DNA from: Staphylococcus phage LY01
Sequence record: OR836606.1
Length of the DNA: 64,000 nucleotides
Strand: one strand, 5' to 3'
Positions 5,372-51,273 of the stretch are shown here, one piece after another (positions within the stretch are counted from its first letter, which is position 1; the number at the start of each line of letters is the position of its first letter). Made by a program: the position numbers and the translations under genes. The notes beneath the pieces were generated by a model. It did not search any database. It was given only the letters and a program-made list of their open reading frames with translations, and was not told the origin of the DNA.

Positions 5372-5620
5372 TTATTTAAAGTTTTCTTTAACAATTTCGT
5401 TAGACAATTTATTTATATAATCATTCTTAAATTCTGTATGCTTAGAAATTGACACTATTGCTTCTTTAAGAAGTTTATTTTCTTTTTTAAGATTTTCATT
5501 ATATGCATAAAGATTATTTACAGCTTTATTTAATTTTTCAATTTCAAAATTAAGACGATCTAAATTAGCTATGCTCCTAAATTCAATAGTTTTCAATTTT
5601 TCTTTAATTTCTTTATCCAT
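5372..5620 (-). CDS. Small hypothetical coiled-coil protein (82 aa)
   Basis: ORF. Confidence 0.45.
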   Translation of the reverse strand: MDKEIKEKLKTIEFRSIANLDRLNFEIEKLNKAVNNLYAYNENLKKENKLLKEAIVSISKHTEFKNDYINKLSNEIVKENFK

Positions 5621-5632
5621 TTTTAATCACCC

Positions 5633-6088
5633 TTATTTAATTAATTTAAATAAATTACGTCCAAATTCCTTATACTTTTTATTTTCTAATATACTGAAAT
5701 CAACTAAGCTGCTATCAACTCTAAGTAAATATATTGAATCATCTTTTTTATTTTTATTATTTAATATAAAACTTCCAAAATAGATATTACCTTCATTAGG
5801 TTTTTCTTTTTTAACGTTTACTGCATTTTCATTAAATTCAAATTTATAAATGAAACCTAGTAATTGTATTGGACCGTTTTTAAATATATGATAATCGAAA
5901 TTATTTTCAAATTTATGGTCTTCATTATTAATTTTCTCAATTAATTCATCTTTAATAACTTCATTATAAAAAGATTCATCCACTTGACTTAATGGCCTTA
6001 AATATGATTCTTCATCTACCTTTGGTTCTAACATTTTAATTTTTTGATCTAAAGTTAATTCTTTGGCAATAACTTTTTCATTTGACAT
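5633..6088 (-). CDS. Hypothetical protein (151 aa)
   Basis: ORF. Confidence 0.5.
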   Translation of the reverse strand: MSNEKVIAKELTLDQKIKMLEPKVDEESYLRPLSQVDESFYNEVIKDELIEKINNEDHKFENNFDYHIFKNGPIQLLGFIYKFEFNENAVNVKKEKPNEGNIYFGSFILNNKNKKDDSIYLLRVDSSLVDFSILENKKYKEFGRNLFKLIK

Positions 6089-33327: not shown

Positions 33328-33489
33328 CATTTATATTAACTATATGAATTTCATATAGATTAGACTATATCTTATACTTCTAATAAGTATTATTATATTT
33401 AATCGTTGGACAATCATAAAGATTGATGCTGATTAAGTTTATAAACTTTTCCAGCAATTAATAATATTTATACTGAGCCATTAAAATTA
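33328..33489 (-). ncRNA. Miniature group I intron (~162 nt) in nrdE
   Basis: On the minus strand: P AATTGCTGGAAAAG, Q AATCAGCATC, R GTCCAACGATTAAA, S AAGATATAGTCTA. The IGS GGCTCAG pairs with the exon end CTGGGT. The intron starts UAA and ends G. Confidence 0.8.
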
Positions 33490-37693: not shown

Positions 37694-38098
37694 TTAATCT
37701 AATAGATTCATTATTCTTTTTGATTTCTGATCTGGAGAAGAATTGTTATTCTGTAATAAAGGATTACTAGGGAGATTACCATCAATAATTCCACTAATAC
37801 GTTTCATGGATGCAATATCTTTTCTTCTAGCTTGTCTTTCTTTTTCAATTTCTTCTGCATTATCTCCATCTGCAGATACCATTGAACCGTATTTAACTTT
37901 AACAAATTTCTTAATGTCTTTCTCATAGTAATAAGCATATAAACAAAATAGATAACTCATAAGTAAATCGTCATGTCCGCCATCAGGGTGATCAATTCTA
38001 CCTTTTTTCATTTGAAGGGATTTTATTTGTTGGAATAATGGTTTATTATTAACTAAATAAGGTTTTTCTTCAACAATCATTGATAAAATTTCATTGAG
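37694..38098 (-). CDS. terL: Terminase large subunit, final exon (nuclease-domain C-terminus, GGHDDLLMS)
   Basis: HPDGGHDDLLMSYLF resembles the terminal catalytic Asp motif of TerL RNase-H-like nucleases. In frame upstream only to 38119, so a 3' splice site lies at ~38099-38119. Confidence 0.6.
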   Translation of the reverse strand, partial: LNEILSMIVEEKPYLVNNKPLFQQIKSLQMKKGRIDHPDGGHDDLLMSYLFCLYAYYYEKDIKKFVKVKYGSMVSADGDNAEEIEKERQARRKDIASMKRISGIIDGNLPSNPLLQNNNSSPDQKSKRIMNLLD

Positions 38099-38099
38099 C

Positions 38100-38286
38100 A
38101 TTAGATCTGCTATATAAATTCATGAGTTTAATTTAATTAAAATGAATTTATTCGACTTCGTCATCACTCTGACTTACTTTGCACTTTAAGTTTTTTCGTT
38201 ATAAACTACTTCAACAGAAAGCTTTAATCAAAGCAGAGGTTAAAGCTCTTAAGTCATCGCATTTGGACATTTAGAGGAATAAGACC
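38100..38286 (-). ncRNA. Predicted TnpB omega-RNA scaffold / IS right end, with the guide abutting terL exon 5
   Basis: Immediately 3' of the tnpB stop; stem-loop AGCTTTAA-n12-TTAAAGCT plus further structured sequence; an omega-RNA is expected for IS605 TnpB loci. Confidence 0.4.
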
Positions 38287-39456
38287 TCATTTAGCCTGCC
38301 CAACAAAACGCTTACCATACAGTTTTAAATTGACAGCAGCGTTATAATCTCTATCCATTTTATGTCCACAATCACAGGAATACCATCTATCTGATAGTTT
38401 CAACTTATCTTCTTTAGTTAGAATTTGGCCACAATTAGAACATAATTGAGTTGATGGAAACCATCTGTCAGCTACAATAATAGTATTACCATTGCTTTCA
38501 GCTTTTTGTTCAAGTAAAGTCCTAAACTGTCTCCAATTGGACTGTGCGATTGATTTGGATAGTTTTCTATTTTTAATCATATTTGAAACCTGTAAATCTT
38601 CAATAGTTATATATTGATAATTGTTAATCAAGTTAGTAGTAATCTTATGAAGATAATCTTTTTTAATATTATTAATTCTATACCATACTTTTTGTATTTT
38701 GGTTTTCAATACATTGTATTTATTAGAACCATAAACTTTTTTAGATAATCTTTTTTGGTAGTATTTGATTTTATTATAGAGTGAGATTAGTTTATTATTT
38801 AATGAATGGTATTTTTTAAATTTACCGAAATCATCATTAATAATAGCTAAATCTTTTACACCTAAATCAATACCTACATGACTATTGTTATGAATTAATT
38901 TTTTACTGTTATCAACTTTCATTACTATCGAAGCGAAATACCTACCAGCATATTTGGATATAGTTACTTCTTGTATAGAATTATAATCTTTGTTTAAAGG
39001 TTCTTTCATTTTAATTAATGAATTTACACCACGCAATTTAAGTTTATTATTTTTCTCACCTTTAATTTGAATAGCGTAAGGATCTTTCCTATAGAACCTT
39101 GCTCTTAATTTAGATTTCTTTTTAGATTTAAATTTAGGATATTTACCATATCCTTTCCACATCATATTAAATGCTTTACCTAGATCTTCTGTAGAAGTTT
39201 CAATTATCATGATAATTTGATCTTTCTCCCAATCTTCTTTACATTTTTTAAGTTCATCACGAACTCTACGATGAGTTGGTTTTGGTAAAGATTTATCAAT
39301 TTGATAATTATTCCACATATATTTCCATTTATTAAGTGCCTTGTTATAAATATAACGACTATATCCAAAAGCTTGATTAAATATCTCTCGTTGTTCTTTA
39401 TTAGGTTTCAATTCGATTTTTATAGATTTGTACATGTGATTTTCACCTCGATTCAT
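38287..39456 (-). CDS. tnpB: TnpB (IS605 OrfB family RNA-guided endonuclease)
   Basis: N-terminal ELKPNKEQREIFNQAFGYSRYIYNKAL. RuvC-I HVGIDLGVKDLA, RuvC-II ITIEDLQV, zinc finger CSNCG...CDCGH, RuvC-III DRDYNAAVNL. Confidence 0.9.
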   Translation of the reverse strand: MNRGENHMYKSIKIELKPNKEQREIFNQAFGYSRYIYNKALNKWKYMWNNYQIDKSLPKPTHRRVRDELKKCKEDWEKDQIIMIIETSTEDLGKAFNMMWKGYGKYPKFKSKKKSKLRARFYRKDPYAIQIKGEKNNKLKLRGVNSLIKMKEPLNKDYNSIQEVTISKYAGRYFASIVMKVDNSKKLIHNNSHVGIDLGVKDLAIINDDFGKFKKYHSLNNKLISLYNKIKYYQKRLSKKVYGSNKYNVLKTKIQKVWYRINNIKKDYLHKITTNLINNYQYITIEDLQVSNMIKNRKLSKSIAQSNWRQFRTLLEQKAESNGNTIIVADRWFPSTQLCSNCGQILTKEDKLKLSDRWYSCDCGHKMDRDYNAAVNLKLYGKRFVGQAK

Positions 39457-40037
39457 ATTTCTAAATGATTTAGAATTTATAATTCATTGTTTAATATATC
39501 GAGGTAAAAATTATTTTAATTAAATTAAACTCACGAATTCCAGAAATCCCTTTCAGGTTCTGTTAAATAGCAAGACTATATCATGATCCATTAAATCAAT
39601 GGACCCCTCGCACTTCGAAAAACTTCTGATGAAGTTAATCTACTCTACTCACTTCACATAGTATTTCAACTATGCTTATTCAGGTTAATCAAACCTGTGC
39701 TTTCGATAGTCGTTGAACGTTTATCCATCATGTGGACACTTCGCTGCTAGACTTCCCATTGTTTACAAACTTTAGCGATCTAGGGTTTTCACCTAGACTT
39801 GTTTTCAGCATAGTTCATCTTAGAGATTTTTTCTGTCTTTCGACTGCATGTCACGCTATCCATTACTGGCATACGTTGTAGCTCTCTAAGCTTTAGGGTT
39901 TTACAAGCAATTCACGAGGTATTTTTACCACTAATTTCATGAATTAAAATTAGTTTAATTTACTTATATAGTAGCAGAGCGTGAAACATGAATTAATAAG
40001 AATTTAAGTCTTAATTCACTTAAAATATCTTAAATTA
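39457..40037 (-). ncRNA. Group I intron ribozyme portion of the IStron
   Basis: On the minus strand: P GAATTGCTTGTAAAACC, Q AAAACAAGTCT, R GTTCAACGACTATC, S CATGATATAGTCTTG. Confidence 0.65.
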
Positions 40038-40877
40038 AAACTGTTTCGTTACTCTAGATTTTTTAGTTGTATCAATACCATATCTTCTTACTTGTTTGGT
40101 AACTTTATTAGTGCTATTTCTAGGAATTTCATTAAATACTTGCTTATTAACTTCAACTTGTTTTTCTGCTACTCTATTCTTTAATGAGTAGAAAATATTG
40201 TCTCCAATACCATCAGTTTGAATCATATCTTCTATCATTACAGTACCTGCATAGTTACGTTCAGGTATTAATACTGCATTAGGTATATAAAGCGTAATAA
40301 GTTCTTTAATTAATTTTCTAAAAGTAGGTCCATTAATTACATTATTTTGGAAAATCATTACAGGCTCTAATGTACCTGGATCAACTACAGTAAATGCAGT
40401 ATTATCTCGACCAAGACCACCAGATATATCAATACCAACAAGCCAGTTCTTTTCATGCATATTATCCATCTTTTTAACCATATAAACATAATAAGTTTTA
40501 CCATTTATTTTAAAATCAATAGTATTATATATCTCTTTATTTGCATATAATGATAATTCTGACATTTGTTGTTCATCAAATAAAGAATCATCGTTACTAA
40601 ACGCCCATTCAAGAAGTATCTCACGTTTAACTGCTTCTAAAGAACCAATTTGACGTTTTTGCTTTTCTAACCAAGCATCATCTTTACCTAATTCTTTATA
40701 TGAATATTCTATATAGATGAATGAATTGCCTGAATTACTTTCCATATACTCTTCTAATTTTTCATTACCCTCTTCTTCAGAATTAATGTAATAATCATAT
40801 ATTTTTTCTGTCCATTGTGCTGCATCATTCATTTGCTCAAAGAAGAACTGTCCTTGAGGTACATCCAAAGTACTCAT
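40038..40877 (-). CDS. terL: Terminase large subunit, exon 4 (nuclease domain). The 5' end (3' splice site of intron A) lies near 40877-40890
   Basis: LVGIDISGGLGRDNTAFTVVD RNase-H-like nuclease motif. PQGQFFFEQMNDAAQW resembles TerL PNGxNhFYdiW. Ends ...VTKQF followed by TAA, the first codon of the IStron. Confidence 0.7.
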
Positions 40878-41035
40878 ATTTTTTATCCTATATTAATTTA
40901 ATATAGATAAGACTATATCTTAGTATATTATAATACCATTTATTATTTAGTCGTTAAACAAGTATTATCAACTTGATGCTGATTGTCTTAATAAAGATTT
41001 TCCAGCAATTAAATAAATAAGCCCAGTTTAATTTT
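40878..41035 (-). ncRNA. Miniature group I intron A in terL (~150-158 nt)
   Basis: Minus strand: IGS GGGC pairs with exon GCCU. P AATTGCTGGAAAA, Q ATCAGCATC, R GTTTAACGACTAAA, S AAGATATAGTCTTA; P3, P5, P6 and P9 hairpins identifiable. Confidence 0.7.
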
Positions 41036-41107
41036 AGGCGTTGTTGTAATTAGAAGACCATAAGGTGTGCCATTTTTCTTAGCTATTGCAGATGCTGTAG
41101 AAACTGC
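41036..41107 (-). CDS. terL: Terminase large subunit micro-exon 3 (72 nt; AVSTASAIAKKNGTPYGLLITTTP)
   Basis: In phase between introns B and A; contains the TerL motif III ITTTP. Confidence 0.65.
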
Positions 41108-41267
41108 CTTTTAATATTAATCTACATGGATTCCATATAGAATAGACTATATCTTAGTATTATATTAATACTATTTATTATTTAGTCGTTGAACACTATA
41201 AATAGCGATGCTGATCGTCTTAATAAAGATTTTCCAGCAATTAAATAAATAAGCCCGCATTAATTTC
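41108..41267 (-). ncRNA. Miniature group I intron B in terL (160 nt); ~90% identical to intron A
   Basis: P, Q, R and S elements present. 5' splice site after AGGCCU with IGS GGGC; 3' end ...TTAATATTAAAAG. Confidence 0.7.
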
Positions 41268-41330
41268 AGGCCTCATTGCTTCAAACATTGTTTGGTTGTG
41301 TGGAATGAATGCCCACTCATCCAACCAGAC
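41268..41330 (-). CDS. terL: Terminase large subunit micro-exon 2 (63 nt; VWLDEWAFIPHNQTMFEAMRP = Walker B)
   Basis: hhhhDE-aafIP Walker B signature of TerL ATPases; in phase 0. Confidence 0.65.
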
Positions 41331-41634
41331 CATAGGTCATTATGTTAACTATATTTAAAAAATATAGATCAGACTATATCATACTCATATAAATAAGTGA
41401 ATATATTTAGTCGTTGAACACTATAATTAGTGATGCTGATTAAGATAATAATCTATTCCAGCAATTAATATTCTTTTACTACTGCAACTATCTACAGTAG
41501 AACCACGCTATTTTAGACTATATCTTCAATTTTATAATTGTCTTTTATTTAGTCGTTGAACACATATGTGATGCTGATCAAATTAAATAATTTGTCCCAG
41601 CAATTAAAAAGATTTATAGCAAGCCATGATATTA
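41331..41634 (-). ncRNA. Composite intron in terL: two tandem group I cores (D at ~41480-41634, C at ~41331-41500) with no exon between them
   Basis: D: the intron starts TAA after the exon ...AGCAGGT, IGS GGCTTGCT, P/Q/R/S, P9 ctactg..cagtag. C: P AATTGCTGGAATAG follows immediately, then Q/R/S/P9. The 3' splice site was chosen to restore the VWLDE frame. Confidence 0.55.
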
Positions 41635-42276
41635 ACCTGCTTTATTTGCACTCTCACTGTTAGTCGGAGGTGAAACTGTTTTAATAGTATTGTTATTACT
41701 AGCTAATTGAAATTCGTTGATCTTATCTCTATCATTTTTATCTCCAAAATTAGCTAATACATATTCAGGTAAACATTTCTCTTTAAATAAGTTTTTAAGA
41801 CGTTTTAAGTTCTCAGTTGTATCTGAATAAGATTTGTGTGTAAATAACATTGTATAGTTACTACCTACTAATAACATTATCCATGAATAATAACATACTG
41901 CTGAATATGTTTTATAGTGCTGACGTGGAAGCATTATAGCTGTATCTAAATTGTGTAACATACAAAATGTCATCGCCATATTACCTCTATGAAGTTCATA
42001 CATAACCTTACCGCCAGGAACAGGAACTCTTATAACTTCCCTTAAATAAAACCATATATTAATTTTAGCTTCCCTTAATACACGGGTTTTCATTTCATCA
42101 GAAAGTTCAGGATCCCAAGGATCTACTCCTACAAGATTTTTATCATATAGAGTTAATGGAATCCCATAATTTCTGACGTTGTTCTTCTTAAGATCCCTAG
42201 CCACTCTTAAAAAACTAACATTATTAGTTTTATAATCGTAATAAACTTTTTTCTTTAATTTTGGTTTAATTGTCAT
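41635..42276 (-). CDS. terL: Terminase large subunit, exon 1 (ATPase N-terminal region, Walker A-like PRQHYKT)
   Basis: MLPRQHYKTYSAVCYYSWIMLL P-loop-like; the ORF terminates at the intron's first codon, TAA. Confidence 0.7.
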
Positions 42277-42295: not shown

Positions 42296-43459
42296 CTATA
42301 CATTTAATCTATCTGATTTTTTAATTAATGTTTGAATATCAGAAAGTTGTTGTTTTAATTCATTTTTAACTTCTTTATCATTATTAGGGTTACTTATTTC
42401 AAATTTTAATGTTTTAATAATAGCTTCAATTGAATCCGTTGGATAGTCTCTATAGTCTCTAATAAACAATCTACTTGGATATAATAATTTCCTAACAATT
42501 TTACCTAATAAAGTTTTACCTTTTTTATTTTCAGATTTAGTTCTAAATGATTTGTATATGATATCATAAAAATTTATAATTTCAGTAGAATAACCGTATA
42601 ACGTAGGTAACTGATTAGCCGATCTTTCTGAAAGGTTGTAGTTCATTTTACCCACTCTTTCATTATCTAAAAGATTTAAAGTTACATTAGCTATAAAAGA
42701 ACTGCCTAACACCAGTGGTAATACTCCTGTCAATGAAGTTAATCCAGCAACTAAAACTGTCATAGCTATAATCATAGGACCTGCGAATTTTAAATTTCTA
42801 GTTGTATCAGATTCAATGTCCTTAGTATACTGAAATTGAACTGGCTTGTTATCTTTATATTTTAATTCAAAAGCGGGTTCTTTTCCTTGGCTTAATACTT
42901 TAATTTCGATAGGTAAAAATAGATTATGTCCCATTTCATGCAATAATAATGCAGTACACATTCTTTCATTAAAATTACTAAAAGTCACTTCTTTAGAAGA
43001 TTTTTTCTTTTCTAAAAAGTATCTTATTGAAGATAACTCAATAAATACCTCAATTTCCCTAGGTTTAGCGTAATGTATACCATTTTTCTCTTCCATAACT
43101 ATTTTTGTTATGCCATCAATAGTATCTCTTATTTGTTCTGGCTTAATTAAAGTATAAGCCACTGATCTTACTCTAAATTTATCTTTACCTTTAGGATCAG
43201 CTTCAACAAATTTTAATTGCATATTAGCATTAAATAATTTTTTAGTAATTTTAGAAATATTATTAGCTATTTTATTTATTTCATGTTTATCAATTAAATC
43301 AAATTCAGATTTATCGAAATTATAGCTATCTAATAAAGTTTTAAATTCTTCATCTATTTCTCTAAGTAATGAAGTATTTTTACTGAAATTAAAAGCATCT
43401 TCATTAATATTCATTATTTTATTAATTTTATTCAATTGGCATTCTTTTCGTAAATCCAT
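42296..43459 (-). CDS. Putative membrane-associated HExxH zinc metallopeptidase (387 aa), paralog 1
   Basis: LLHEMGHNLFLP motif; hydrophobic TM segments; paralogous to the adjacent gene. Confidence 0.55.
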   Translation of the reverse strand: MDLRKECQLNKINKIMNINEDAFNFSKNTSLLREIDEEFKTLLDSYNFDKSEFDLIDKHEINKIANNISKITKKLFNANMQLKFVEADPKGKDKFRVRSVAYTLIKPEQIRDTIDGITKIVMEEKNGIHYAKPREIEVFIELSSIRYFLEKKKSSKEVTFSNFNERMCTALLLHEMGHNLFLPIEIKVLSQGKEPAFELKYKDNKPVQFQYTKDIESDTTRNLKFAGPMIIAMTVLVAGLTSLTGVLPLVLGSSFIANVTLNLLDNERVGKMNYNLSERSANQLPTLYGYSTEIINFYDIIYKSFRTKSENKKGKTLLGKIVRKLLYPSRLFIRDYRDYPTDSIEAIIKTLKFEISNPNNDKEVKNELKQQLSDIQTLIKKSDRLNV

Positions 43460-43486: not shown

Positions 43487-44593
43487 TTATATATCAGGTG
43501 TTAACCTATCAGACATTTTTATTAATTTCTGAATGTCACTAATAGTTTTCTTTATTTCTTCTTTAGTTTTAGCATCATTATTACTATTAGATAATTCTTT
43601 TTGTAATATTTTCACATTACTCTCTATTATATCTGTTTCCCAATCTTTATAATCTCTTATAAAAAGGTTGAAAGGATATAATAATTTATTTTTAATTTTA
43701 TTAATTTTACTGTTGTTATATATTGGTGGTTTACTACCTTCTAATTTATCTATCTCTCTAACTATTATTGTAGTTTTAGTTAATTCTCTAGCATAACCAT
43801 ATAAATTAGGAAGATAATCTGCAGTTCTTTCAGTTAAATTATAATCTTTATTATTTTTATTTTTCTTTATATTTCTGTTTAAAAAAACAGTTGTAACCAT
43901 TCCACTTCCGATACCTATAGGTGCATTAACAATACTTAAAAAGATAAAGAATAAAGTCATAGCAGATATCATAGGTATAGCAAATTTTTTATTTCTTTTT
44001 TCATCTTCTTCAATATCTTTTGAGTAAGAAAACATTTGAGGTGGATTATCTTTATATTTCAATTCAAATTTAGGAGTTTTTCCTTTATTAAGTACATTTA
44101 ATTCTAAAGGTAAAATTAAATTATGTCCTATTTCATGAAGTAAGACTGAAGTTAATAAACTTCCATCAAATAGATTGTCTATTATTTTATTTTTACCTTT
44201 TAATAAAATACAGTATCTTATAAAGTTTAACTCCATATCAACTATTATTTTAGTCGGTTTAGCATAATATATCCCATTTTTTTCTTCAGAGACTATTTTT
44301 AATAATCCCAATGCTATATCTTTTGCTTGTTTTTCATTCCATCTTGTTTGACCTATGAAATTACATGAATAATATTTAGAATCATTCAATTCTAAGAAAT
44401 TAAATCTCAAATCAGTGTTAAATAATTCATTACATATTTTCTCTATTTCTTTTTCTTTATTTTTAAAATTAAAGTCAATAAATTCTTCTTTATTAAGATC
44501 ATATGAATTTATTAATTCATTAAATACATTATCAATTAATTTTAGCTTATTCTTATTTTTACTATTAATAAACATATCTTCGTTAAGAAGCAA
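43487..44593 (-). CDS. Putative membrane-associated HExxH zinc metallopeptidase (368 aa), paralog 2
   Basis: VLLHEIGHNLILP motif; shares an extended block ...GKxPxFELKYKDNxP... with paralog 1. Confidence 0.55.
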   Translation of the reverse strand: MLLNEDMFINSKNKNKLKLIDNVFNELINSYDLNKEEFIDFNFKNKEKEIEKICNELFNTDLRFNFLELNDSKYYSCNFIGQTRWNEKQAKDIALGLLKIVSEEKNGIYYAKPTKIIVDMELNFIRYCILLKGKNKIIDNLFDGSLLTSVLLHEIGHNLILPLELNVLNKGKTPKFELKYKDNPPQMFSYSKDIEEDEKRNKKFAIPMISAMTLFFIFLSIVNAPIGIGSGMVTTVFLNRNIKKNKNNKDYNLTERTADYLPNLYGYARELTKTTIIVREIDKLEGSKPPIYNNSKINKIKNKLLYPFNLFIRDYKDWETDIIESNVKILQKELSNSNNDAKTKEEIKKTISDIQKLIKMSDRLTPDI

Positions 44594-46478: not shown

Positions 46479-47087
46479 CTATTTGCTTTTTTTGTCTTTA
46501 TTCAATTTATTATATTCTTTTAAATAAATATTGAAGATTTCATTATAAGTATTTTCAAACTTCTTATAAAGTTTTTTACATTTATCAGCATCAATATTAT
46601 TTATAAATTTATTGTTAAATAAATTAATACTGTCAATTAAACTGTCTAAGTTATTTGAAGTTTGTATTGTAATTTCATTCATTTTTTCTTTTTCATTTTT
46701 ATCAAATAATTTCATATTTTTTTCATTTATAATATCTTTAAATTTTAATGAAACAGATATCAAATCATTTAGTTTATTAAATATTTGTAATTTTAGATAT
46801 TTATCAGAATTAGTTTCTTTAGGTTCATTATTTTCTTCTTCAGATTGATCATCTTCATTATTGTTATCTTGACTATCTTCTTCGGTTTCTGTATTTTCTT
46901 CTGAAGATTCTTCATTATCACTATTGGCATCTTCAGAACTTGTATCATCTGTATTAGTATCTGGAGAATCATTATTAGTTTCATCATCTTCAGCTTCATT
47001 AAGAATATTATTACCATTTAATAATTTTTTAATTGATTCAGATAAAAGATCTCTATTATTAATAGTCATATGATGACCCACTATCAT
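46479..47087 (-). CDS. Acidic low-complexity protein (D/E/S/N-rich; possibly scaffold or internal protein)
   Basis: ORF upstream of the capsid gene. Confidence 0.45.
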   Translation of the reverse strand: MIVGHHMTINNRDLLSESIKKLLNGNNILNEAEDDETNNDSPDTNTDDTSSEDANSDNEESSEENTETEEDSQDNNNEDDQSEEENNEPKETNSDKYLKLQIFNKLNDLISVSLKFKDIINEKNMKLFDKNEKEKMNEITIQTSNNLDSLIDSINLFNNKFINNIDADKCKKLYKKFENTYNEIFNIYLKEYNKLNKDKKSK

Positions 47088-48078
47088 TTACATCTCCACG
47101 AGAAATCGCATTCTTAGTTTTTTCAATAGATTTCTTTTGGAAATTAGCTTTCTTAAGTTGAACTTCTAAATCTGATTTTAATATTCTTAATTCTTTTCTT
47201 TTTTCTTCATCATCAGTTGAATCAATTCTGTTTTCTAAAGTTTGAATTCTTTCTTCTAATACAATGATAAGTCTATTAAGTTCATTACCTTTAGTTGCAT
47301 TATAAACAATTACAGTCAATAAACCTATTAAAGCCGTTTTAGCTTTACCAATACCTGCTGAACTAATTTTTAAACCAATACAGAATAAAATTCCAGTTAA
47401 TAGAGCTCTTACGAATCTAATACGATTAGCTTTAGCTAATTGTTTATCATTCATATTTTTAGAAGAAGCTGTTGCTTTTTTAACAGAGCTAATTAATTTA
47501 TTTAAATTTTTTTCAGCAACTTTGGGGTCTTTAGAAGTTTCAAAACTACTATCAAGACCATCAAGATAATCTTCATCATCGTCATCATCATAAGCTTCAT
47601 TAAGATAATTCATATTACCCTCCATTAAGAAGTTAATAACAGCTTTTCTTTCTAATTTAGAATCAGCAGGGCTTTCAGCTAGTGCTACAGTCAATTGTTT
47701 AAAATTAAATTCTGTATTAATATTAGAACTAAAATCTTCTTTATATAAACTATCTATGTATCCGTTATTTGGGACACGTTTATTAATATAAAGAGTGTTA
47801 TATTTATCTTTTAAAAATTCTATTTTATGAAGAACCATATTAACTGCCATTTCAGACTGTTCATTTTCAATTTCAAATCTTTCTAACGAATCTTTTAAAG
47901 TAACAAGATATTTAACAGATTTTCTAACTTGATCGCTTGTAAAAGAATCCACATCTGCATACTTTTCAATGTCAATTAATTTATCATATAAATCAACAGG
48001 AAAAGAATCATTATCTGTTTGTTCTATGAAATATTTTAAATCACTTTCTACTTCATTGAAATTCTTCAAGTATTTCAC
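47059..48078 (-). CDS. Hypothetical membrane protein (339 aa, one TM segment)
   Basis: ORF; hydrophobic stretch FVRALLTGILFCIGL...LIGLLTVIVY. Confidence 0.5.
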   Translation of the reverse strand: MKYLKNFNEVESDLKYFIEQTDNDSFPVDLYDKLIDIEKYADVDSFTSDQVRKSVKYLVTLKDSLERFEIENEQSEMAVNMVLHKIEFLKDKYNTLYINKRVPNNGYIDSLYKEDFSSNINTEFNFKQLTVALAESPADSKLERKAVINFLMEGNMNYLNEAYDDDDDEDYLDGLDSSFETSKDPKVAEKNLNKLISSVKKATASSKNMNDKQLAKANRIRFVRALLTGILFCIGLKISSAGIGKAKTALIGLLTVIVYNATKGNELNRLIIVLEERIQTLENRIDSTDDEEKRKELRILKSDLEVQLKKANFQKKSIEKTKNAISRGDVNDSGSSYDY

Positions 48079-48180
48079 ATCCTATTCATATTTTCATTAA
48101 GGTTAATATTCTATTGTTAAAATTGCTTATCAAACATTTAAATATTCTAAATTTAATATATGAAAGGAAGTTAAATAAAT

Positions 48181-48404
48181 ATGTCTAAAGATATAAAAGC
48201 TTATCTTATTAATGAATCTAACACAACTTCTCAACCAGAAGTAGTTCAAGATAATAATAAATCGGTTAGATTCATTGCTGAGTTACAAGAAGCTGATAGA
48301 CAAAACCGTAATGGTCGTGTTTATCGTAAAGATGTTATTCAAAGTGGTTTAGATAGTCCAGTAATACAAGAAAAATTAGCAAGAAAAACTTTTTATGGTG
48401 AGTT
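48181..48404 (+). CDS. Prohead core protease (T4 gp21-like), exon 1
   Basis: NGRVYRK and YGE(L)HP align to T4 gp21 RLYPK / GELNHP; the exon ends GTGAGTT, which pairs with the IGS GGCTCAC. Confidence 0.65.
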
Positions 48405-48561
48405 TTAGGTTAAATGGCTCACATTAAATTATATTAATTGCTGGAAAAGATTATTATCTTAATCAGCATCAACTTAATACAAGTTGTTCAACGACTAAAT
48501 ATATAGCCTAGATGATATAGTCTAACCTTTATTAAAATGATAAAGAATAATAATTTGCAGG
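48405..48561 (+). ncRNA. Miniature group I intron 1 in the protease gene (157 nt)
   Basis: Plus strand: P AATTGCTGGAAAAG, Q AATCAGCATC, R GTTCAACGACTAAA, S GATGATATAGTCTAA, P9 ctttat..ataaag. Confidence 0.75.
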
Positions 48562-48817
48562 ACATCCTTTAAGTGATGAACCTAAACGACAAATGTATAT
48601 TGATCAACGTAATATTTCTCATATCGTTACTAGAACATGGTGGAATGGTAATAAATTAATGGCAGAAGTAGAAACGGCACAAACAGCAGCTGGTAAAGAT
48701 ATGAAAGGTTTAATCGGACAAAAGTCTGACGTATCTTTCTCAATGCGTGGTTTCAGTAAAATTAATAGAACACCTTCTGGCGAAGTTGAAGTTACTAAAC
48801 CTTTAAGATTAATCTGT
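48562..48817 (+). CDS. Prohead core protease, exon 2 (HPLSDEPKRQ...TWWNGN...SFSMRGFS)
   Basis: Aligns to T4 gp21 MWWKGN and the catalytic-Ser region SSRGLGS; ends phase 0 before the TAA that starts the intron. Confidence 0.65.
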
Positions 48818-48998
48818 TAAATTGTAGCAGCTTTATATAGAAATATATATTGAAAAAGAATATTAATTGCTAAGAAGTTTAATTAAGCCAATTAGCATCA
48901 ACTTAATACAAGTTGTTCAACGACTAAATATATTTACTCTTAATAAGAGTATGATATAGTCTAATCTTAATAGTAAGATCTATTAAGTTAATATAATG
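48818..48998 (+). ncRNA. Miniature group I intron 2 in the protease gene (181 nt), P4 covariant
   Basis: P AATTGCTAAGAAG with Q AATTAGCATC: compensatory GCUAAG/UUAGC versus GCUGG/CCAGC in the other introns. R GTTCAACGACTAAA, S ATGATATAGTCTAA. IGS GCAG pairs with exon CUGU. Confidence 0.75.
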
Positions 48999-49025
48999 TA
49001 CGATAAAATAAACCTTGTCGCTTCT
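48999..49025 (+). CDS. Prohead core protease micro-exon 3 (27 nt; YDKINLVAS)
   Basis: In-frame segment between intron 2 (3' end at G48998) and the TAA that starts intron 3. Confidence 0.5.
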
Positions 49026-49188
49026 TAAAGCAATTTAAGAATGATAAAACTATTAATTGCTAAAATCTTTTATTAAAGTAATTAGCATCAACTTAATAAA
49101 AGTTGTTCAAAGACTAAATATAGTTTATCCTTTTATAGGATAATGATATAGTCTGATCTATATTATACTAATATAGATAACATAAATG
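49026..49188 (+). ncRNA. Miniature group I intron 3 in the protease gene (163 nt)
   Basis: P AATTGCTAAAATC, Q ATTAGCATC, R GTTCAAAGACTAAA, S ATGATATAGTCTGA, P9 ctatattatactaatatag; ends ...CATAAATG. Confidence 0.7.
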
Positions 49189-49542
49189 TGGGTAGTAATT
49201 CCATCTCATCAAGATTCTTACATTCAAAATATTATTTCAGAAGGACACAATAATTATAATCCTAATGATTTACAAATGGTAAATGAATCAATTGATATGT
49301 TCACTAATGGTAAAATTACTGAATTTTCTCCTAGAGAAGTTTTAACTTATATTAAAGAAAATTCAGATAATGTAAAATACATTGCTGAAGATATGGGGTT
49401 TGCTGGAGTTGATGAATCTAATATCAGTTATGATAAAGGATCTCAATTAGCTTCAATTAGAGAAAGTAATAAAACTATTAAAGTTTTCTTAGAAGAATCT
49501 GTTCTTAATGGACTTGATGATTTCTATAGAAACTTTAAATAA
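49189..49542 (+). CDS. Prohead core protease, exon 4
   Basis: WVVIPSHQDSY... in phase 0 after intron 3. Confidence 0.6.
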   Translation, partial: WVVIPSHQDSYIQNIISEGHNNYNPNDLQMVNESIDMFTNGKITEFSPREVLTYIKENSDNVKYIAEDMGFAGVDESNISYDKGSQLASIRESNKTIKVFLEESVLNGLDDFYRNFK

Positions 49543-49566
49543 TATGTATGGATGTGATTAAAGGTT

Positions 49567-50280
49567 ATGTTAACCAATACAGAAATACTTAATTATATTG
49601 AACGTGATGTAGGTTTCATGTTCACTGATTTAGAATTAAAACCTGATGATATTATTAAAACAGTGGAAAGATTCACTATTCCTACATTTAGTAAATTTCA
49701 TCCTAAACAAGAAAGAGTAATTGTAAAACCAGAAGATAAAGTAGAAGGTACTACAAATATATATTATATTGATTCTGAAAATCCTATAGTTAATATTAAT
49801 AGAGTAATTGGAGCTAATAATCCTATTACTAATTTAACAGGGTATGCAGGTAACATGAGCTCTTATGCAGGATTTGCTATGGGTAACCCAATTGATGGAC
49901 AAATGATGTCTGATTTAATGGCGATCAATTTATCTCCATCTACTTTTAGATATCATCATCCTAATAAAATAGAAATATTGAATTCTGCTGTAATCGGTTC
50001 AGTTAATTTACTAATTGTTCTAAATACTTATCATGATAAACATTTTGGTTCTATACCAAATAATATGCATGATTATTTCTTAGAATTAGCTTCTTATGAT
50101 GTTCAAATATCATTATATGCTATGAGAAGTAGATTCCAGAACTTACAAACTACTTTTGGAGAGTTAAATCTTAATATGGATGATTTACGTGAAGCAAAAG
50201 ATAAACGTAAAGAATTAGTAGAAAAGATGGAAAATTATTCTATATTTAATAGTAACAGAAAGAAATTATATTTCGGTTAA
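49567..50280 (+). CDS. Hypothetical protein (237 aa)
   Basis: ORF with RBS. Confidence 0.55.
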   Translation: MLTNTEILNYIERDVGFMFTDLELKPDDIIKTVERFTIPTFSKFHPKQERVIVKPEDKVEGTTNIYYIDSENPIVNINRVIGANNPITNLTGYAGNMSSYAGFAMGNPIDGQMMSDLMAINLSPSTFRYHHPNKIEILNSAVIGSVNLLIVLNTYHDKHFGSIPNNMHDYFLELASYDVQISLYAMRSRFQNLQTTFGELNLNMDDLREAKDKRKELVEKMENYSIFNSNRKKLYFG

Positions 50281-50285
50281 TAAAA

Positions 50286-50330
50286 TACCCCAATACCATT
50301 TTTCTATGGTATTGGGGATTTATTTTTTAT
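50286..50330 (+). terminator. Rho-independent terminator
   Basis: Stem ccccaatacca/tggtattgggg followed by atttatttttt. Confidence 0.65.
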
Positions 50331-50649
50331 TTATATAAGGAGTAAATCATAAATAAAGATTAAAATAGAAATTTAATCATTAAGCGAGCAATTTTTTATT
50401 ATAAAAACTTAATACGCTAATATATTGTAAGTTATTTATAAATTTGACATGGCAGTTTGTCCAATAAAGCTTATAAGCTTTATCAAATTAGCTAAAAAAA
50501 TTATAAATAGCAAAGTTTTATACTATACGAAGTTAATAGCAAAATGACTTTGAAATCAGAGCACAAACATAAGACAAAACAAAAGGTAAAACAATATAGA
50601 AATCTAAATTTCTATATTTATATTGTTAGTAACAAAATATAAATAAATT

Positions 50650-51273
50650 TTATTTCATTACATTATAAATATTAAATTGATTTTTTAATCGCTGTTTATC
50701 AAATCTATTCATAGGTTTAGTTTCAAAACGATTTTCATCAAGATGATCGAGATAATCATCTCTATAAATTTCATCTAACAATTTTATCTCATGAAAACTT
50801 AATCTATGTCTTTTACATAAAGGTACTAGTAATTTATCTGCTAAATGTTTAAACATACGCGTATCAGGGTTATATAAATTAAAATCATCAGCTATAGCTA
50901 TTAAAAGACTATTCCTATACTTCTGAGGTATAATTCCTTTATCTGCTAATTCTTGAAGATAATAACTAGGTTTATAATCAGATAATCCTTCCATAACAGC
51001 GTAATCTTTATCTATCAATTCTACATAATAGTGCATAGGTAATGCTCTAATATTAGCATGTCTAATTAGATAATTCTGAACTTTACCCCAAGAATATTTA
51101 TAAGATCCTTTAAGTAAATCTCTATCACTAAATTTATTTTCCTTAAGTATTAAATTATTCATATGAGTAATTATTACATGTGTTTGAAAAGTATTACTTC
51201 TTCTTCGTCTATCTTGTTTAATTTCATAATACATTTTTTTAGTAACCTCGTTTCTAACAATAACTAATTGCAT
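50650..51273 (-). CDS. Hypothetical protein (207 aa), possibly an enzymatic domain partner of the upstream PG-binding protein
   Basis: ORF overlapping the upstream ORF by 20 nt. Confidence 0.45.
   Translation of the reverse strand: MQLVIVRNEVTKKMYYEIKQDRRRRSNTFQTHVIITHMNNLILKENKFSDRDLLKGSYKYSWGKVQNYLIRHANIRALPMHYYVELIDKDYAVMEGLSDYKPSYYLQELADKGIIPQKYRNSLLIAIADDFNLYNPDTRMFKHLADKLLVPLCKRHRLSFHEIKLLDEIYRDDYLDHLDENRFETKPMNRFDKQRLKNQFNIYNVMK

What the first reader, a model, noticed from the sequence alone, without database searches (positions are those of the whole stretch)
37694..42276. Terminase large subunit split into five exons by four to five group I introns, with 63-nt and 72-nt micro-exons
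The terL N-terminal ORF (41635-42276) and the nuclease-domain ORF (40038-40877) are separated by about 750 bp that contains four P/Q/R/S group I cores. Translating the inter-core segments in phase gives VWLDEWAFIPHNQTMFEAMRP, which is the TerL Walker B signature (hhhhDE-aafIP), and AVSTASAIAKKNGTPYGLLITTTP, which contains the TerL motif III (TTTP). A further exon, 37694-38098, carries the terminal nuclease motif GGHDDLL; it is separated from the rest of the gene by a 1.9-kb IStron. Five exons and two micro-exons of 21 and 24 codons would be extreme for a bacterial or phage gene. The exact phases depend on which intron-terminal G residues are used.
Basis: partly seen in the sequence, partly recalled or inferred. 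Interest (0 to 1): 0.85.

Follow-up and report, generated by a model that had tools for sequence, protein, structure and literature searches.

The report
Phage terminase gene with five introns
The DNA-packaging motor gene (terL) of a Staphylococcus jumbo phage is cut into six pieces, one only 14 bases long, by four unusually tiny group I introns and one transposon-type intron carrying an RNA-guided nuclease gene; the kind of thing is known, but this is an extreme and previously unresolved case.

Summary
Using the uninterrupted terL of phage S6 as a ruler, the window's terL (- strand, 42276-37694) has six exons (642, 14, 70, 72, 823, 413 nt) and five introns. Removing them gives a 2034-nt ORF of 677 aa. 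That is exactly the S6 length, 97% identical, with dN/dS 0.05.

Introns 1-4 (127, 156, 160, 161 nt) have no ORF and belong to one family. They carry a complete minimal group I core (P1, P3-P8; P9 in three of the four). Each follows a 5' exon ending in U, paired with a G in P1, and ends in G. Covariation is strong. Rfam recognises them only below its gathering score, so standard annotation misses them.

Intron 5 (1945 nt) is an IStron with an intact TnpB gene and no TnpA. It splices after G, with U as the first intron base. This was shown experimentally for 'group B' IStrons.

Intron-disrupted terL in this clade was already reported (MarsHill, Madawaska, Machias) but could not be reconstructed. 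The same junction rules reconstruct MarsHill and Madawaska. No RNA evidence exists yet.

The parts
41635..42276 (-). terL exon 1 (642 nt, codons 1-214, includes Walker A-like PRQHYKT at residues 117-123). It ends ...GCA GGT| and the intron opens with an in-frame TAA.
41508..41634 (-). Intron 1: 127-nt group I intron with no ORF, no P2 and no P9. P1 is AGCAGGU/GCUUGCU with U.G at the splice site. It ends ...AAAAUAG.
   Evidence: (Intron_gpI 42.1 bits)
41494..41507 (-). terL exon 2: 14-nt micro-exon CGTGGTTCTACTGT (Arg-Gly-Ser-Thr plus the first two bases of a Val codon). It has 5 nt differences from S6, all synonymous.
   Evidence: the same exon is in MarsHill and a 14-nt exon in the same position in Madawaska
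41338..41493 (-). Intron 2: 156-nt group I intron with no ORF. P1 is CUACUGU/GCAGUAG. It ends ...CAUAAUG and sits in phase 2, inside codon 219.
41268..41337 (-). terL exon 3 (70 nt): completes Val219, then PMVWLDEWAFIPHNQTMFEAMRP (Walker B / catalytic Glu).
41108..41267 (-). Intron 3: 160-nt group I intron with no ORF. P1 is AGGCCU/GGGCUU. It ends ...UAAAAG.
   Evidence: (Intron_gpI 47.8 bits)
41036..41107 (-). terL exon 4 (72 nt): AVSTASAIAKKNGTPYGLLITTTP (coupling motif TTT).
40875..41035 (-). Intron 4: 161-nt group I intron with no ORF, 82% identical to intron 3 and with the same guide sequence GGGC pairing with GCCU. It ends ...AAUAUG.
   Evidence: (26.5 bits)
40052..40874 (-). terL exon 5 (823 nt; rest of the ATPase domain and most of the nuclease domain). 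It ends ...TCT AGA G|.
38107..40051 (-). Intron 5: 1945-nt IStron. The group I ribozyme covers about 40051-39554. The TnpB ORF is 39456-38287. A 180-nt 3' tail (presumed omega-RNA scaffold plus right end) is 38286-38107 and ends ...UAUAGCAG. The 5' splice site follows G, and the first intron base is U.
38287..39456 (-). tnpB inside intron 5 (389 aa as ORF; 382 aa as annotated in phage LY01). It has HTH_OrfB_IS605, OrfB_IS605 and Cas12f1-like TNB domains, and the RuvC motifs GIDLG / IEDL / DRDYNAA are present.
37694..38106 (-). terL exon 6 (413 nt including the stop codon). It begins AT CTA ATG..., completes Asp541 and contains GGHDDLL (583-589).

Best explanation
The window comes from an AR9/PBS1-like Staphylococcus jumbo phage. 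It is phage LY01 or a near-identical genome. Its large-terminase gene carries five self-splicing-type introns. terL is transcribed as one pre-mRNA. Each intron folds into a group I ribozyme, and its guide sequence pairs with the last 4-7 bases of the upstream exon. A guanosine attacks after the exon-terminal U, or after G for intron 5. The freed exon end then attacks after the intron's terminal G. Six exons are joined into a 2034-nt mRNA encoding a 677-aa TerL. Unspliced RNA cannot make TerL: stop codons lie 0-22 codons into every intron, and the Walker B and coupling motifs lie in the 70- and 72-nt internal exons.

Introns 1-4 are ORF-less paralogues of one minimal intron family. They probably spread by homing with endonucleases supplied in trans or by relatives, since versions with endonuclease genes occupy the same sites in related phages. 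Ectopic reverse splicing at sites sharing GCCU may explain introns 3 and 4.

Intron 5 is an IS607-lineage ('group B') IStron that has kept TnpB but not TnpA. TnpB with its 3' guide RNA would cut IStron-free copies of the site and restore the element by recombination.

Shown: anatomy, junctions, covariation, restoration of the ORF. Inferred: splicing in vivo, autonomy of catalysis, mobility routes, TnpB activity.
For: 1. Junctions. Removing the five segments gives a 677-aa ORF of the same length as intact S6 TerL, 97% identical. dN/dS is 0.049, with 128 synonymous and 21 non-synonymous codon differences.

2. Presence/absence among relatives.
- S6, SA1 and DC4 have no terL intron.
- MarsHill has introns 1-3 only.
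- AH12 has introns at sites 1 and 4 only.
- PALS_2 has one at site 4 only.
- The IStron is only in the window.
- MarsHill and Madawaska, both plaque-forming phages, reconstruct to 677 aa by the same rules, including the 14-nt exon.

3. Group I anatomy of introns 1-4.
- Every 5' exon ends in U and every intron ends in G.
- RNAalifold on a plain MAFFT alignment finds P4, P5, P6, P7 and P9, with 11 of 26 pairs compensatory.
- P3 strands taken at fixed offsets from conserved motifs pair over a mean of 5.9 bases, against 1.0 for shuffles and 1.75 for non-cognate pairs.
- The count of structure pairs gives 97.7% of cells paired, against 70% when shuffled and 31-51% when slid. 27 of 45 pairs change on both sides, U.G is present in 16/16, and 0 of 500 shuffles reach the observed value.
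- Unconstrained MFE folds recover the helices, with z from -2.3 to -3.8.
- Rfam Intron_gpI scores 47.8, 42.1, 26.5 and 17.3 bits when short stretches are searched.

4. IStron.
- Ribozyme: Intron_gpI 26.1 bits over the full model.
- TnpB domains and RuvC motifs are present.
- All eight IStron-free alleles read TCT CGT GAY NTA ATG, which fixes the junction as AGAG|...|AT. The P1 fold UAGAGU/GCUCUG has z -3.9.
- That is the behaviour shown by RT-PCR for BcISt1 (PMC4227781).
- Homology to the Listeria phage LPJP1 element stops exactly at the predicted 3' end ...TATATAGCAG.

5. Protein.
- PHROG TerL phrog_2 matches at E = 4.9e-42 over residues 151-633.
- T4 gp17 aligns across the junctions.
Against: - There is no RNA-level evidence of any kind.
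- All five elements fall below Rfam's gathering score of 50 bits, and nothing is reported in a normal whole-window scan.
- The mini-introns lack P2 and peripheral tertiary contacts. Intron 1 also lacks P9. Most helices are A-U rich, so autonomous catalysis at physiological Mg2+ is uncertain.
- P10 pairings are no better than shuffled sequence.
- Helices P5, P6 and P8 in alignment A2 were placed by pairing, so their 100% pairing is partly built in. P1, P3, P4 and P7 were not placed that way.
- Introns 3 and 4 share a guide sequence, so mis-splicing that skips exon 4 is possible.
- TnpA is absent and no omega-RNA was demonstrated.
Confidence: 0.85

Rival explanations
1. The elements are removed from the RNA, but not autocatalytically. 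The minimal introns would be degenerate group I ribozymes that need a phage or host protein (a maturase-like cofactor or RNA chaperone), or low temperature, to fold and splice.
For: - The introns are very small (127-161 nt), with no P2 and no tetraloop-receptor periphery. Intron 1 has no P9. A family member in the neighbouring gene (48404-48557) has almost no P8.
- Rfam scores are sub-threshold.
- In Bastillevirinae, several phage introns spliced in vivo but not in vitro (PMC11878797).
- MarsHill-like phages do not propagate well at 37 C. This is only suggestive.
Against: - The catalytic core (P3-P8, J8/7, the G-binding P7, U.G in P1, terminal G) is complete and strongly conserved or covarying.
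- No maturase-like ORF lies in or next to these introns.
Confidence: 0.3
2. terL in this genome is a decaying pseudogene, or the phage is defective. The insertions are simply disruptive and are never removed.
For: There is no direct evidence that this genome is from a viable phage, and no expression data.
Against: - Exons show strong purifying selection: dN/dS is 0.049, with no frameshift or stop in any exon.
- The 14-nt exon differs from S6 at 5 positions, all synonymous.
- Plaque-forming MarsHill and Madawaska carry the same introns and the same 14-nt exon.
- No second terL is evident in the ORF list around the gene.
Confidence: 0.03
3. TerL is made as separate polypeptides from the large ORFs, which assemble without RNA splicing. 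This is how the current annotations of MarsHill, Madawaska, Machias and PB50 present it: as two 'terminase large subunit' CDSs.
For: Related records annotate two TerL CDSs. PHROGs even has a family (phrog_32359) that matches only residues 9-214.
Against: - The Walker B/catalytic Glu and the coupling motif lie in the 14-, 70- and 72-nt exons. These have no start codon or ribosome-binding site and could not be translated on their own.
- Intact homologues are single 677-aa proteins.
Confidence: 0.02
4. The short elements are DNA-level miniature transposons or assembly artefacts of a repeat family, not introns.
For: They form a repeated family, with at least 8 copies in 64 kb.
Against: - The same insertions occur at the same nucleotide in independently sequenced genomes.
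- Each copy has its own guide sequence complementary to its own upstream exon, with U.G at the junction.
- There are no terminal inverted repeats or target duplications.
- Every copy is on the sense strand of a gene and restores the reading frame on removal.
Confidence: 0.02

Closest known systems
[quoted passage not shown]
   Same: It is the same gene in the same phage clade. MarsHill carries orthologues of introns 1-3 (94-98% identical) and the same 14-nt exon. Madawaska carries intron 2 (92% identical) and a 14-nt exon in the same position.
   Different: The authors state that TerL 'could not be confidently reconstructed'. Here the junctions are resolved against the intact S6 allele. The window also has a fourth mini-intron and an IStron that none of the nine related records has.
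Multi-intron phage genes: Twort orf142 (three group I introns, 23-nt internal exon, exon skipping) and Bastillevirinae pol/TerL genes (two or three introns) (PMC10136302, PMC11878797)
   Same: Tandem group I introns sit in an essential late or DNA-metabolism gene. There are short internal exons, similar neighbouring introns, and a risk of exon skipping.
   Different: There are five introns in one gene instead of up to three. Internal exons are 14 nt here and 6 nt in the neighbouring gene, against 23 nt in Twort and 34 nt in Coxiella. Intron length is 127-161 nt, against a mean of 802 nt in Bastillevirinae.
Group B / IS607-family IStrons (BcISt1, CboIStron; Tourasse 2014 PMC4227781; Zedaveinyte 2023 PMC10690162)
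   Same: - A group I ribozyme lies at the 5' end and tnpB at the 3' end.
- Transposon ends coincide with splice sites.
- The 5' splice site follows G, U is the first intron base, and the U.G pair is shifted by one.
- An A/U-rich hairpin sits in the P1 loop.
- The last bases of the flank (AG) are repeated at the right end (..CAG).
   Different: - The flanking motif is AGAG, not TGGG/AGGG.
- There is no TnpA.
- The host is a lytic jumbo phage and the target is terL.
- The nearest relatives are elements in Listeria phage LPJP1 and in ~240-kb metagenomic contigs, not Clostridium or Bacillus chromosomes.
   Same: A compact core has few or no peripheral domains.
   Different: The mini-introns here are 40-80 nt shorter and lack P2. 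One also lacks P9. Their self-splicing is untested.

Membership tests
Group I intron (Rfam RF00028 Intron_gpI) | Conserved core helices P3-P8 with the P3/P7 pseudoknot and the P/Q/R/S sequence elements | tested here: met
   (covariation in P3, P5, P6, P8; invariant P4/P7). Searches give alignments to the Rfam model for all five introns.
Group I intron (Rfam RF00028 Intron_gpI) | P1 formed by an internal guide sequence and the end of the 5' exon, with a U.G wobble at the 5' splice site | tested here: met
   Introns 1-4: U.G at the junction in 16/16 family members, with each guide matching its own exon. Intron 5: U.G is present but one base downstream of the junction, as documented for group B IStrons.
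Group I intron (Rfam RF00028 Intron_gpI) | Terminal G at the 3' end, and exact restoration of the host reading frame on removal | tested here: met
   (all five end in G; 677-aa ORF). Searches compare with intron-free alleles.
Group I intron (Rfam RF00028 Intron_gpI) | Score at or above the family's curated gathering threshold (50 bits) | tested here: not met
   No hit in the whole-window scan or in a 5-kb scan. Scores of 47.8, 42.1, 26.5, 17.3 and 26.1 bits appear only when short stretches are searched.
Group I intron (Rfam RF00028 Intron_gpI) | Guanosine-initiated self-splicing | not testable with these tools
   Needs in vitro transcription with GTP, or RNA-seq/RT-PCR.
IStron (group B, IS607 lineage) | A single element combining a 5' group I ribozyme with a 3' IS200/605- or IS607-type ORF B (TnpB), with element ends equal to splice sites | tested here: met
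   (ribozyme plus TnpB). (ends equal the junctions that restore terL). (homology with the LPJP1 element ends at the same 3' base).
IStron (group B, IS607 lineage) | 5' exon does not end in U, U is the first base of the element, and the U.G pair is shifted by one | tested here: met
   Reference behaviour is in PMC4227781.
IStron (group B, IS607 lineage) | Serine-recombinase TnpA, or evidence of transposition (several copies at GG-containing sites) | tested here: not met
   No TnpA ORF in the element and a single copy in the window. The flank is AGAG, not GG. ORF-B-only IStrons are described, and the LPJP1 relative has an extra 209-aa ORF annotated as hypothetical upstream of its TnpB; I take it to be TnpA but did not test this.
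IStron (group B, IS607 lineage) | Omega-RNA from the 3' end guiding TnpB to the empty site | not tested
   A 180-nt 3' tail exists (38286-38107) and its last 57 nt are 86% identical to LPJP1. No structure or activity test was made.
Terminase large subunit (TerL) | Collinear match of the whole protein to TerL profiles, with ATPase Walker A/B and coupling motifs and nuclease acidic residues | tested here: met
   - PHROG phrog_2: E 4.9e-42, residues 151-633.
- 97% identity to the 677-aa protein annotated as TerL in DC4 and SA1.
- T4 gp17 local alignments at 209-268 and 531-594.
- Pfam Terminase_6N is below its cut-off, 14.7 against 22 bits.

The most novel reading that the evidence does not exclude
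Introns 1-4 would represent a natural class of minimal, autonomous group I ribozymes (127-161 nt; no P2; P9 dispensable). They would splice accurately around exons as short as 14 nt, and 6 nt in the neighbouring gene. That would make them the smallest self-splicing group I introns known. The terL locus would also act as a weapon in phage-phage competition. The IStron's TnpB-guide complex, together with endonucleases of sister introns in relatives, would cut intron-free terL alleles of co-infecting phages. This would drive homing and interfere with the rival's packaging motor.
Probability: 0.25. Interest if true: 0.8.

Novelty: new variant of a known kind. Interest (0 to 1): 0.6.

Why it matters
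1. It resolves a published gap. The TerL of MarsHill-like phages could not be reconstructed, and the same junction rules now give intact 677-aa proteins for the window, MarsHill and Madawaska.

2. It exposes a family of very small group I introns that fall below Rfam's threshold. Intron surveys of jumbo phages therefore under-count them. One paper reported no Rfam introns in the related phage DC4, and that genome may deserve a second look outside terL.

3. If the 127-161-nt elements self-splice, they define a smaller natural catalytic core than the usual minimal models. They would also show that group I ribozymes can handle 6-14-nt exons.

4. A TnpB-carrying IStron in an essential gene of a lytic phage, with relatives in Listeria phage LPJP1 and a ~240-kb metagenomic contig, and TnpB homologues on many more such contigs, links RNA-guided nucleases to intron homing and possibly to competition between phages.

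5. Practically, phage annotation pipelines should join these exons rather than calling two 'terminase' ORFs.

Tried and rejected
- Rfam at gathering threshold on the whole window, and at E<=10 on 5 kb, found no group I hit. Hits appear only when stretches of 1 kb or less are searched.
- Megablast of the IStron against 50,697 phage records found no match.
- Exact-protein look-ups for the exon-1 ORF, TnpB, P0001 and P0002 found nothing on record.
- An 18-mer from the IStron ribozyme scanned against genome contigs gave 10 hits. Nine lack the surrounding motif, and that number is about what chance predicts for 596 Gb, so it is uninformative. In viral contigs about 12 of 13 share the extended motif, which shows only that this ribozyme class is common in large phage contigs.
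- A strict pattern for the mini-intron core found only one IMG/VR contig, which I did not follow up.
- P10 pairings between the 3' exons and the guide-loop sequence are not better than shuffled sequence. I do not claim P10.
PHROGs and PDB sequences were used instead.
- The S-motif at 53348 and the Q-like motif at 61767 are isolated matches, not introns.
- The AR9 genome paper and the J Virol version of Korn et al. are not held in the library.
- I found no paper on phage LY01, and no paper stating the smallest known group I intron.
- An alternative 5' splice site for intron 5 after U (AGAGU|) was rejected. It would need an intron ending in A, or it would break the reading frame, and all eight IStron-free alleles have GAY at that codon.

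Full report
**What the window is**

The region matches nine Staphylococcus jumbo phages of the AR9/PBS1-like group at 80-93% identity: MarsHill, PALS_2, UFV_DC4, S6, SA1, Madawaska, AH12, PB50 and Machias. No record covers more than 55% of the query. The TnpB protein encoded in the region is 100% identical to a 'mobile element protein' of Staphylococcus phage LY01, which lies on a 258,897-bp contig. The window is therefore LY01 or a near-identical genome. I found no paper on LY01.

**Checking the observation**

Between them lie four copies of the group I R element TTYAACGACTA and the S element GATATAGTC. A fifth copy lies in the 1.9-kb element. The S element occurs 11 times in the window against 0.53 expected.

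Phages S6, SA1 and DC4 have an uninterrupted 2034-nt terL encoding 677 aa. Aligning S6 terL to the window gives five collinear blocks and leaves S6 nucleotides 642-657 unmatched. Reading the sequence shows that this gap is filled by a 14-nt exon, CGTGGTTCTACTGT, lying between the first two cores.

| Part | Window coordinates (- strand) | Length |
|---|---|---|
| Exon 1 | 42276-41635 | 642 nt |
| Intron 1 | 41634-41508 | 127 nt |
| Exon 2 | 41507-41494 | 14 nt |
| Intron 2 | 41493-41338 | 156 nt |
| Exon 3 | 41337-41268 | 70 nt |
| Intron 3 | 41267-41108 | 160 nt |
| Exon 4 | 41107-41036 | 72 nt |
| Intron 4 | 41035-40875 | 161 nt |
| Exon 5 | 40874-40052 | 823 nt |
| Intron 5 | 40051-38107 | 1945 nt |
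| Exon 6 | 38106-37694 | 413 nt |

With these boundaries the joined sequence is 2034 nt and 677 aa, with 657/677 residues identical to S6. It missed one exon, mis-sized another (63 nt for 70 nt) and underestimated the protein (about 520 aa for 677 aa).

**Is the joined gene real?**

- Against S6 there are 128 synonymous and 21 non-synonymous codon differences, and dN/dS is 0.049.
- The three small exons are much more diverged at the nucleotide level than the large ones: 64%, 86% and 83% identity, against 90-94%. They are nevertheless unchanged in protein.
- The 14-nt exon differs at five positions, all synonymous. This pattern fits co-conversion of flanking exon sequence during intron homing, selection on exon-guide pairing, or both.
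- PHROG TerL family phrog_2 matches residues 151-633 at E = 4.9e-42.
- The best local alignment to T4 gp17 (PDB 3ezk) is residues 209-268. This stretch, SANKAGRGSTVPMVWLDEWAFIPHNQTMFEAMRPAVS...LLITTTPST, crosses four junctions. A second alignment, 531-594, crosses the fifth.
- Pfam Terminase_6N is only sub-threshold.
- Every intron has an in-frame stop 0-22 codons in, so unspliced RNA cannot yield TerL.

**Comparative evidence for mobility and for the exact insertion points**

| Phage | terL intron content |
|---|---|
| S6, SA1, DC4 | none |
| MarsHill | introns 1, 2 and 3, with the identical 14-nt exon; no intron 4 or 5 |
| Madawaska | site-1 intron carrying a homing-endonuclease gene, then a 14-nt exon (AGAGGTAGTACTGT), then intron 2 |
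| AH12 | introns only at sites 1 and 4 |
| PALS_2 | only a 1.5-kb ORF-containing intron at site 4 |
| PB50, Machias | an intron 15 nt upstream of site 1 (leaving a 29-nt exon), an endonuclease-bearing intron at site 2, and one close to site 3 |
| all eight aligned relatives | no IStron; the ninth, DC4, is a single uninterrupted 2034-nt CDS |

- MarsHill and Madawaska terL reconstruct to 677 aa with the same junction rules.
- Korn et al. had reported that terL in these phages is intron-disrupted but 'could not be confidently reconstructed'. The obstacle was the 14-nt exon and the lack of an intact homologue at the time.

**Introns 1-4 are group I introns of a minimal kind**

Basic features:
- They contain no ORF of 40 aa or more.
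- They belong to one family: paralogues are 55-82% identical, introns 3 and 4 are 82% identical, and MarsHill orthologues are 94-98% identical.
- Each 5' exon ends in U and each intron ends in G.
- Each has a guide sequence 8-11 nt into the intron that pairs with its own exon end, with U.G at the junction: AGCAGGU/GCUUGCU, CUACUGU/GCAGUAG, AGGCCU/GGGCUU and GCCU/GGGC.

Structure evidence from 16-17 family members. Four are from terL, four from elsewhere in the window and the rest from relatives.
- RNAalifold on an ordinary MAFFT alignment predicted P4, P5, P6, P7 and P9, with compensatory changes in 11 of 26 pairs.
- The two P3 strands were taken with no freedom, as the bases immediately 5' of UAA-UGCUG and immediately 3' of GACUAAAU. 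They form a mean of 5.9 consecutive pairs, against 1.0 for shuffles (maximum 2.35 in 2000) and 1.75 for non-cognate combinations.
- On a structural alignment that MAFFT kept intact through column 161, the count of structure pairs gave 97.7% of cells paired, against 70% shuffled and 31-51% slid. 27 of 45 pairs changed on both sides. The covariation score was 0.567 against 0.136, and 0 of 500 shuffles reached it.
- Caveat: P5, P6 and P8 arms in that alignment were placed by pairing. P1, P3, P4 and P7 were not.
- Unconstrained MFE folds recover P1, P4-P5, P6, P7, P8 and P9, with z from -2.3 to -3.8.

Unusual features:
- None of the four has P2.
- Intron 1 has only seven bases after P7 and therefore no P9.
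- P10 is not supported statistically.
- Rfam's Intron_gpI model aligns to them sensibly but scores 47.8, 42.1, 26.5 and 17.3 bits, below the 50-bit gathering score. It reports nothing at all in a normal scan. [quoted passage not shown]

**Intron 5 is an IStron**

Anatomy:
- Its 5' 500 nt align to the full Intron_gpI model at 26.1 bits.
- It then encodes a 389-aa TnpB with HTH_OrfB_IS605, OrfB_IS605 and Cas12f1-like TNB domains. The closest PDB relatives are TnpB structures, and the motifs GIDLG, IEDL and DRDYNAA are present.
- It ends with a 180-nt non-coding tail.

Junction:
- All eight IStron-free alleles read TCT CGT GAY NTA ATG. The window reads TCT AGA G|...|AT CTA ATG.
- The 5' junction therefore follows G, the first intron base is U, and the intron ends in G.
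- The 5' region folds with UAGAGU paired to GCUCUG around a long A/U-rich hairpin, with z = -3.9. The U.G pair lies one base downstream of the junction.
- Tourasse et al. described exactly this for group B IStrons, and they showed by RT-PCR for BcISt1 that splicing occurs after G.

Relatives:
- The nearest relative among deposited phages is an element in Listeria jumbo phage LPJP1. It has a 69% identical ribozyme, an extra ORF upstream of its TnpB, annotated as hypothetical, that I take to be the serine-recombinase TnpA (not tested), plus TnpB. Its homology to the window stops at the same 3' base...TATATAGCAG.
- A homologous ribozyme-TnpB element sits in a 239-kb metagenomic contig. Well over a hundred TnpB homologues at about 60% identity lie mostly on 230-250-kb contigs.
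- The window's element has no TnpA and is single-copy in the window.

Flanking motif:
- In IS607-type IStrons the flanking motif serves three roles at once: the transposase target, the TnpB TAM and the P1 partner.
- Here that motif is AGAG, produced by a synonymous Arg codon (AGA) that none of the eight aligned relatives has.
- Whether the relatives' CGTG makes them immune to this TnpB is an open and testable point.

**Mechanism**

Shown:
- The anatomy and junctions.
- The covariation.
- The presence/absence polymorphism.
- The restoration of a conserved TerL.

Inferred:
- The pre-mRNA is spliced at five places by guanosine-initiated transesterification.
- The mini-introns spread by homing. 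Endonuclease-bearing versions occupy sites 1, 2 and 4 in relatives. Ectopic reverse splicing is also possible, because introns 3 and 4 are 82% identical and both recognise ...GCCU.
- The IStron is maintained by TnpB-guided cutting of empty sites followed by recombination, as shown for the C. botulinum IStron.

Because introns 3 and 4 share a guide sequence, skipping of exon 4 is a foreseeable side reaction. Exon skipping has been seen in Twort orf142 and in a SIOphi gene (terminase according to that paper's results, polymerase according to its discussion).

**Comparison with what is known, and novelty**

What is already known:
- Group I introns in phage terL genes, with up to three per gene in Bastillevirinae.
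- Intron-split terL in this very clade.
- IStrons, including some in Clostridium phages.

What is new:
- The resolved six-exon architecture.
- Five introns in one phage gene.
- A 14-nt exon. The shortest exons between two group I introns cited in the literature I could read are 23 nt (Twort) and 34 nt (Coxiella).
- A family of 127-161-nt group I introns that standard models miss.
- A TnpB IStron in terL of a lytic jumbo phage.

I rate it a new variant of a known kind, with interest 0.6. The main weakness is that no RNA or biochemical evidence exists. My statement that these would be the smallest group I introns rests on memory (Azoarcus, about 205 nt), and I could not verify it in the library.

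Noticed in passing
window 48404-49188 (+ strand), gene spanning about 47000-50900: The neighbouring gene is the orthologue of the S6_0070-0090 region, probably the prohead protease/scaffold. It carries three more mini group I introns of the same family: 48404-48557 (154 nt), 48818-48998 (181 nt) and 49005-49188 (184 nt). The last two have a P2 capped by GAAA/GCAA loops. Between them is a 6-nt exon, TACGAT (48999-49004). Phage S6 is continuous there (...AGATTAATTTGT TATGAT TGGGTAG...), which confirms the 6-nt exon.
   Followed up: partly
window 48404-48557 (+): This family member has almost no P8: only CCUAG lies between P3' and J8/7. It may be a crippled intron, or it may show that P8 is dispensable in this family. 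S6 has a 1.17-kb ORF-containing insert at the same site.
   Followed up: no
window 33328-33489 (- strand): Another 162-nt mini group I intron of the same family lies in a ribonucleotide-reductase-like gene (exon context ...NQLG | QRNGAGALYLNIFHKD...). P1 is ACUGGGU/GCUCAGU.
   Followed up: partly
terL exons 2-4 (41507-41036) versus S6 (L001): Synonymous divergence is much higher in the short exons flanked by introns (64-86% nt identity) than in the long exons (90-94%), with no amino-acid change in the 14-nt exon. The Arg codon next to the IStron is AGA here and CGT in all eight relatives. This suggests co-conversion tracts, or selection for guide pairing or TAM.
   Followed up: partly
L009 (Listeria phage LPJP1, MZ422438.1 219500-223580) and L036 (ENA scaffold, 239 kb): Homologous IStrons (ribozyme plus TnpB, and in LPJP1 an extra upstream ORF that may be TnpA) occur in other jumbo-phage genomes. 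In LPJP1 the element sits just upstream of a phage groL gene. Well over a hundred TnpB homologues at about 60% identity lie mostly on 230-250-kb metagenomic contigs. This looks like an unsurveyed reservoir of phage IStrons.
   Followed up: partly
L007 (PB50) 5573-5743 and L008 (Machias) 2232-2402: The mini-intron near site 3 in PB50 and Machias seems to splice after G (ATGAG|U...), with the U.G pair one base downstream, like the IStron. It has no TnpB. The reading frame is restored only with that junction (reasoning from the sequence).
   Followed up: no
phage LY01, outside the window: A second TnpB paralogue, 81% identical (P0002), is annotated in phage LY01 but is not encoded in this window. 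It may mark a second IStron elsewhere in the genome.
   Followed up: no
window 42296-43459 and 43487-44593 (- strand): Two tandem paralogous ORFs (387 and 368 aa) lie between the major capsid gene and terL. Both contain an HEXGHN-like motif (LLHEMGHNLF / LLHEIGHNLI) and a hydrophobic segment. Relatives S6 and MarsHill show only one ORF in this position.
   Followed up: no
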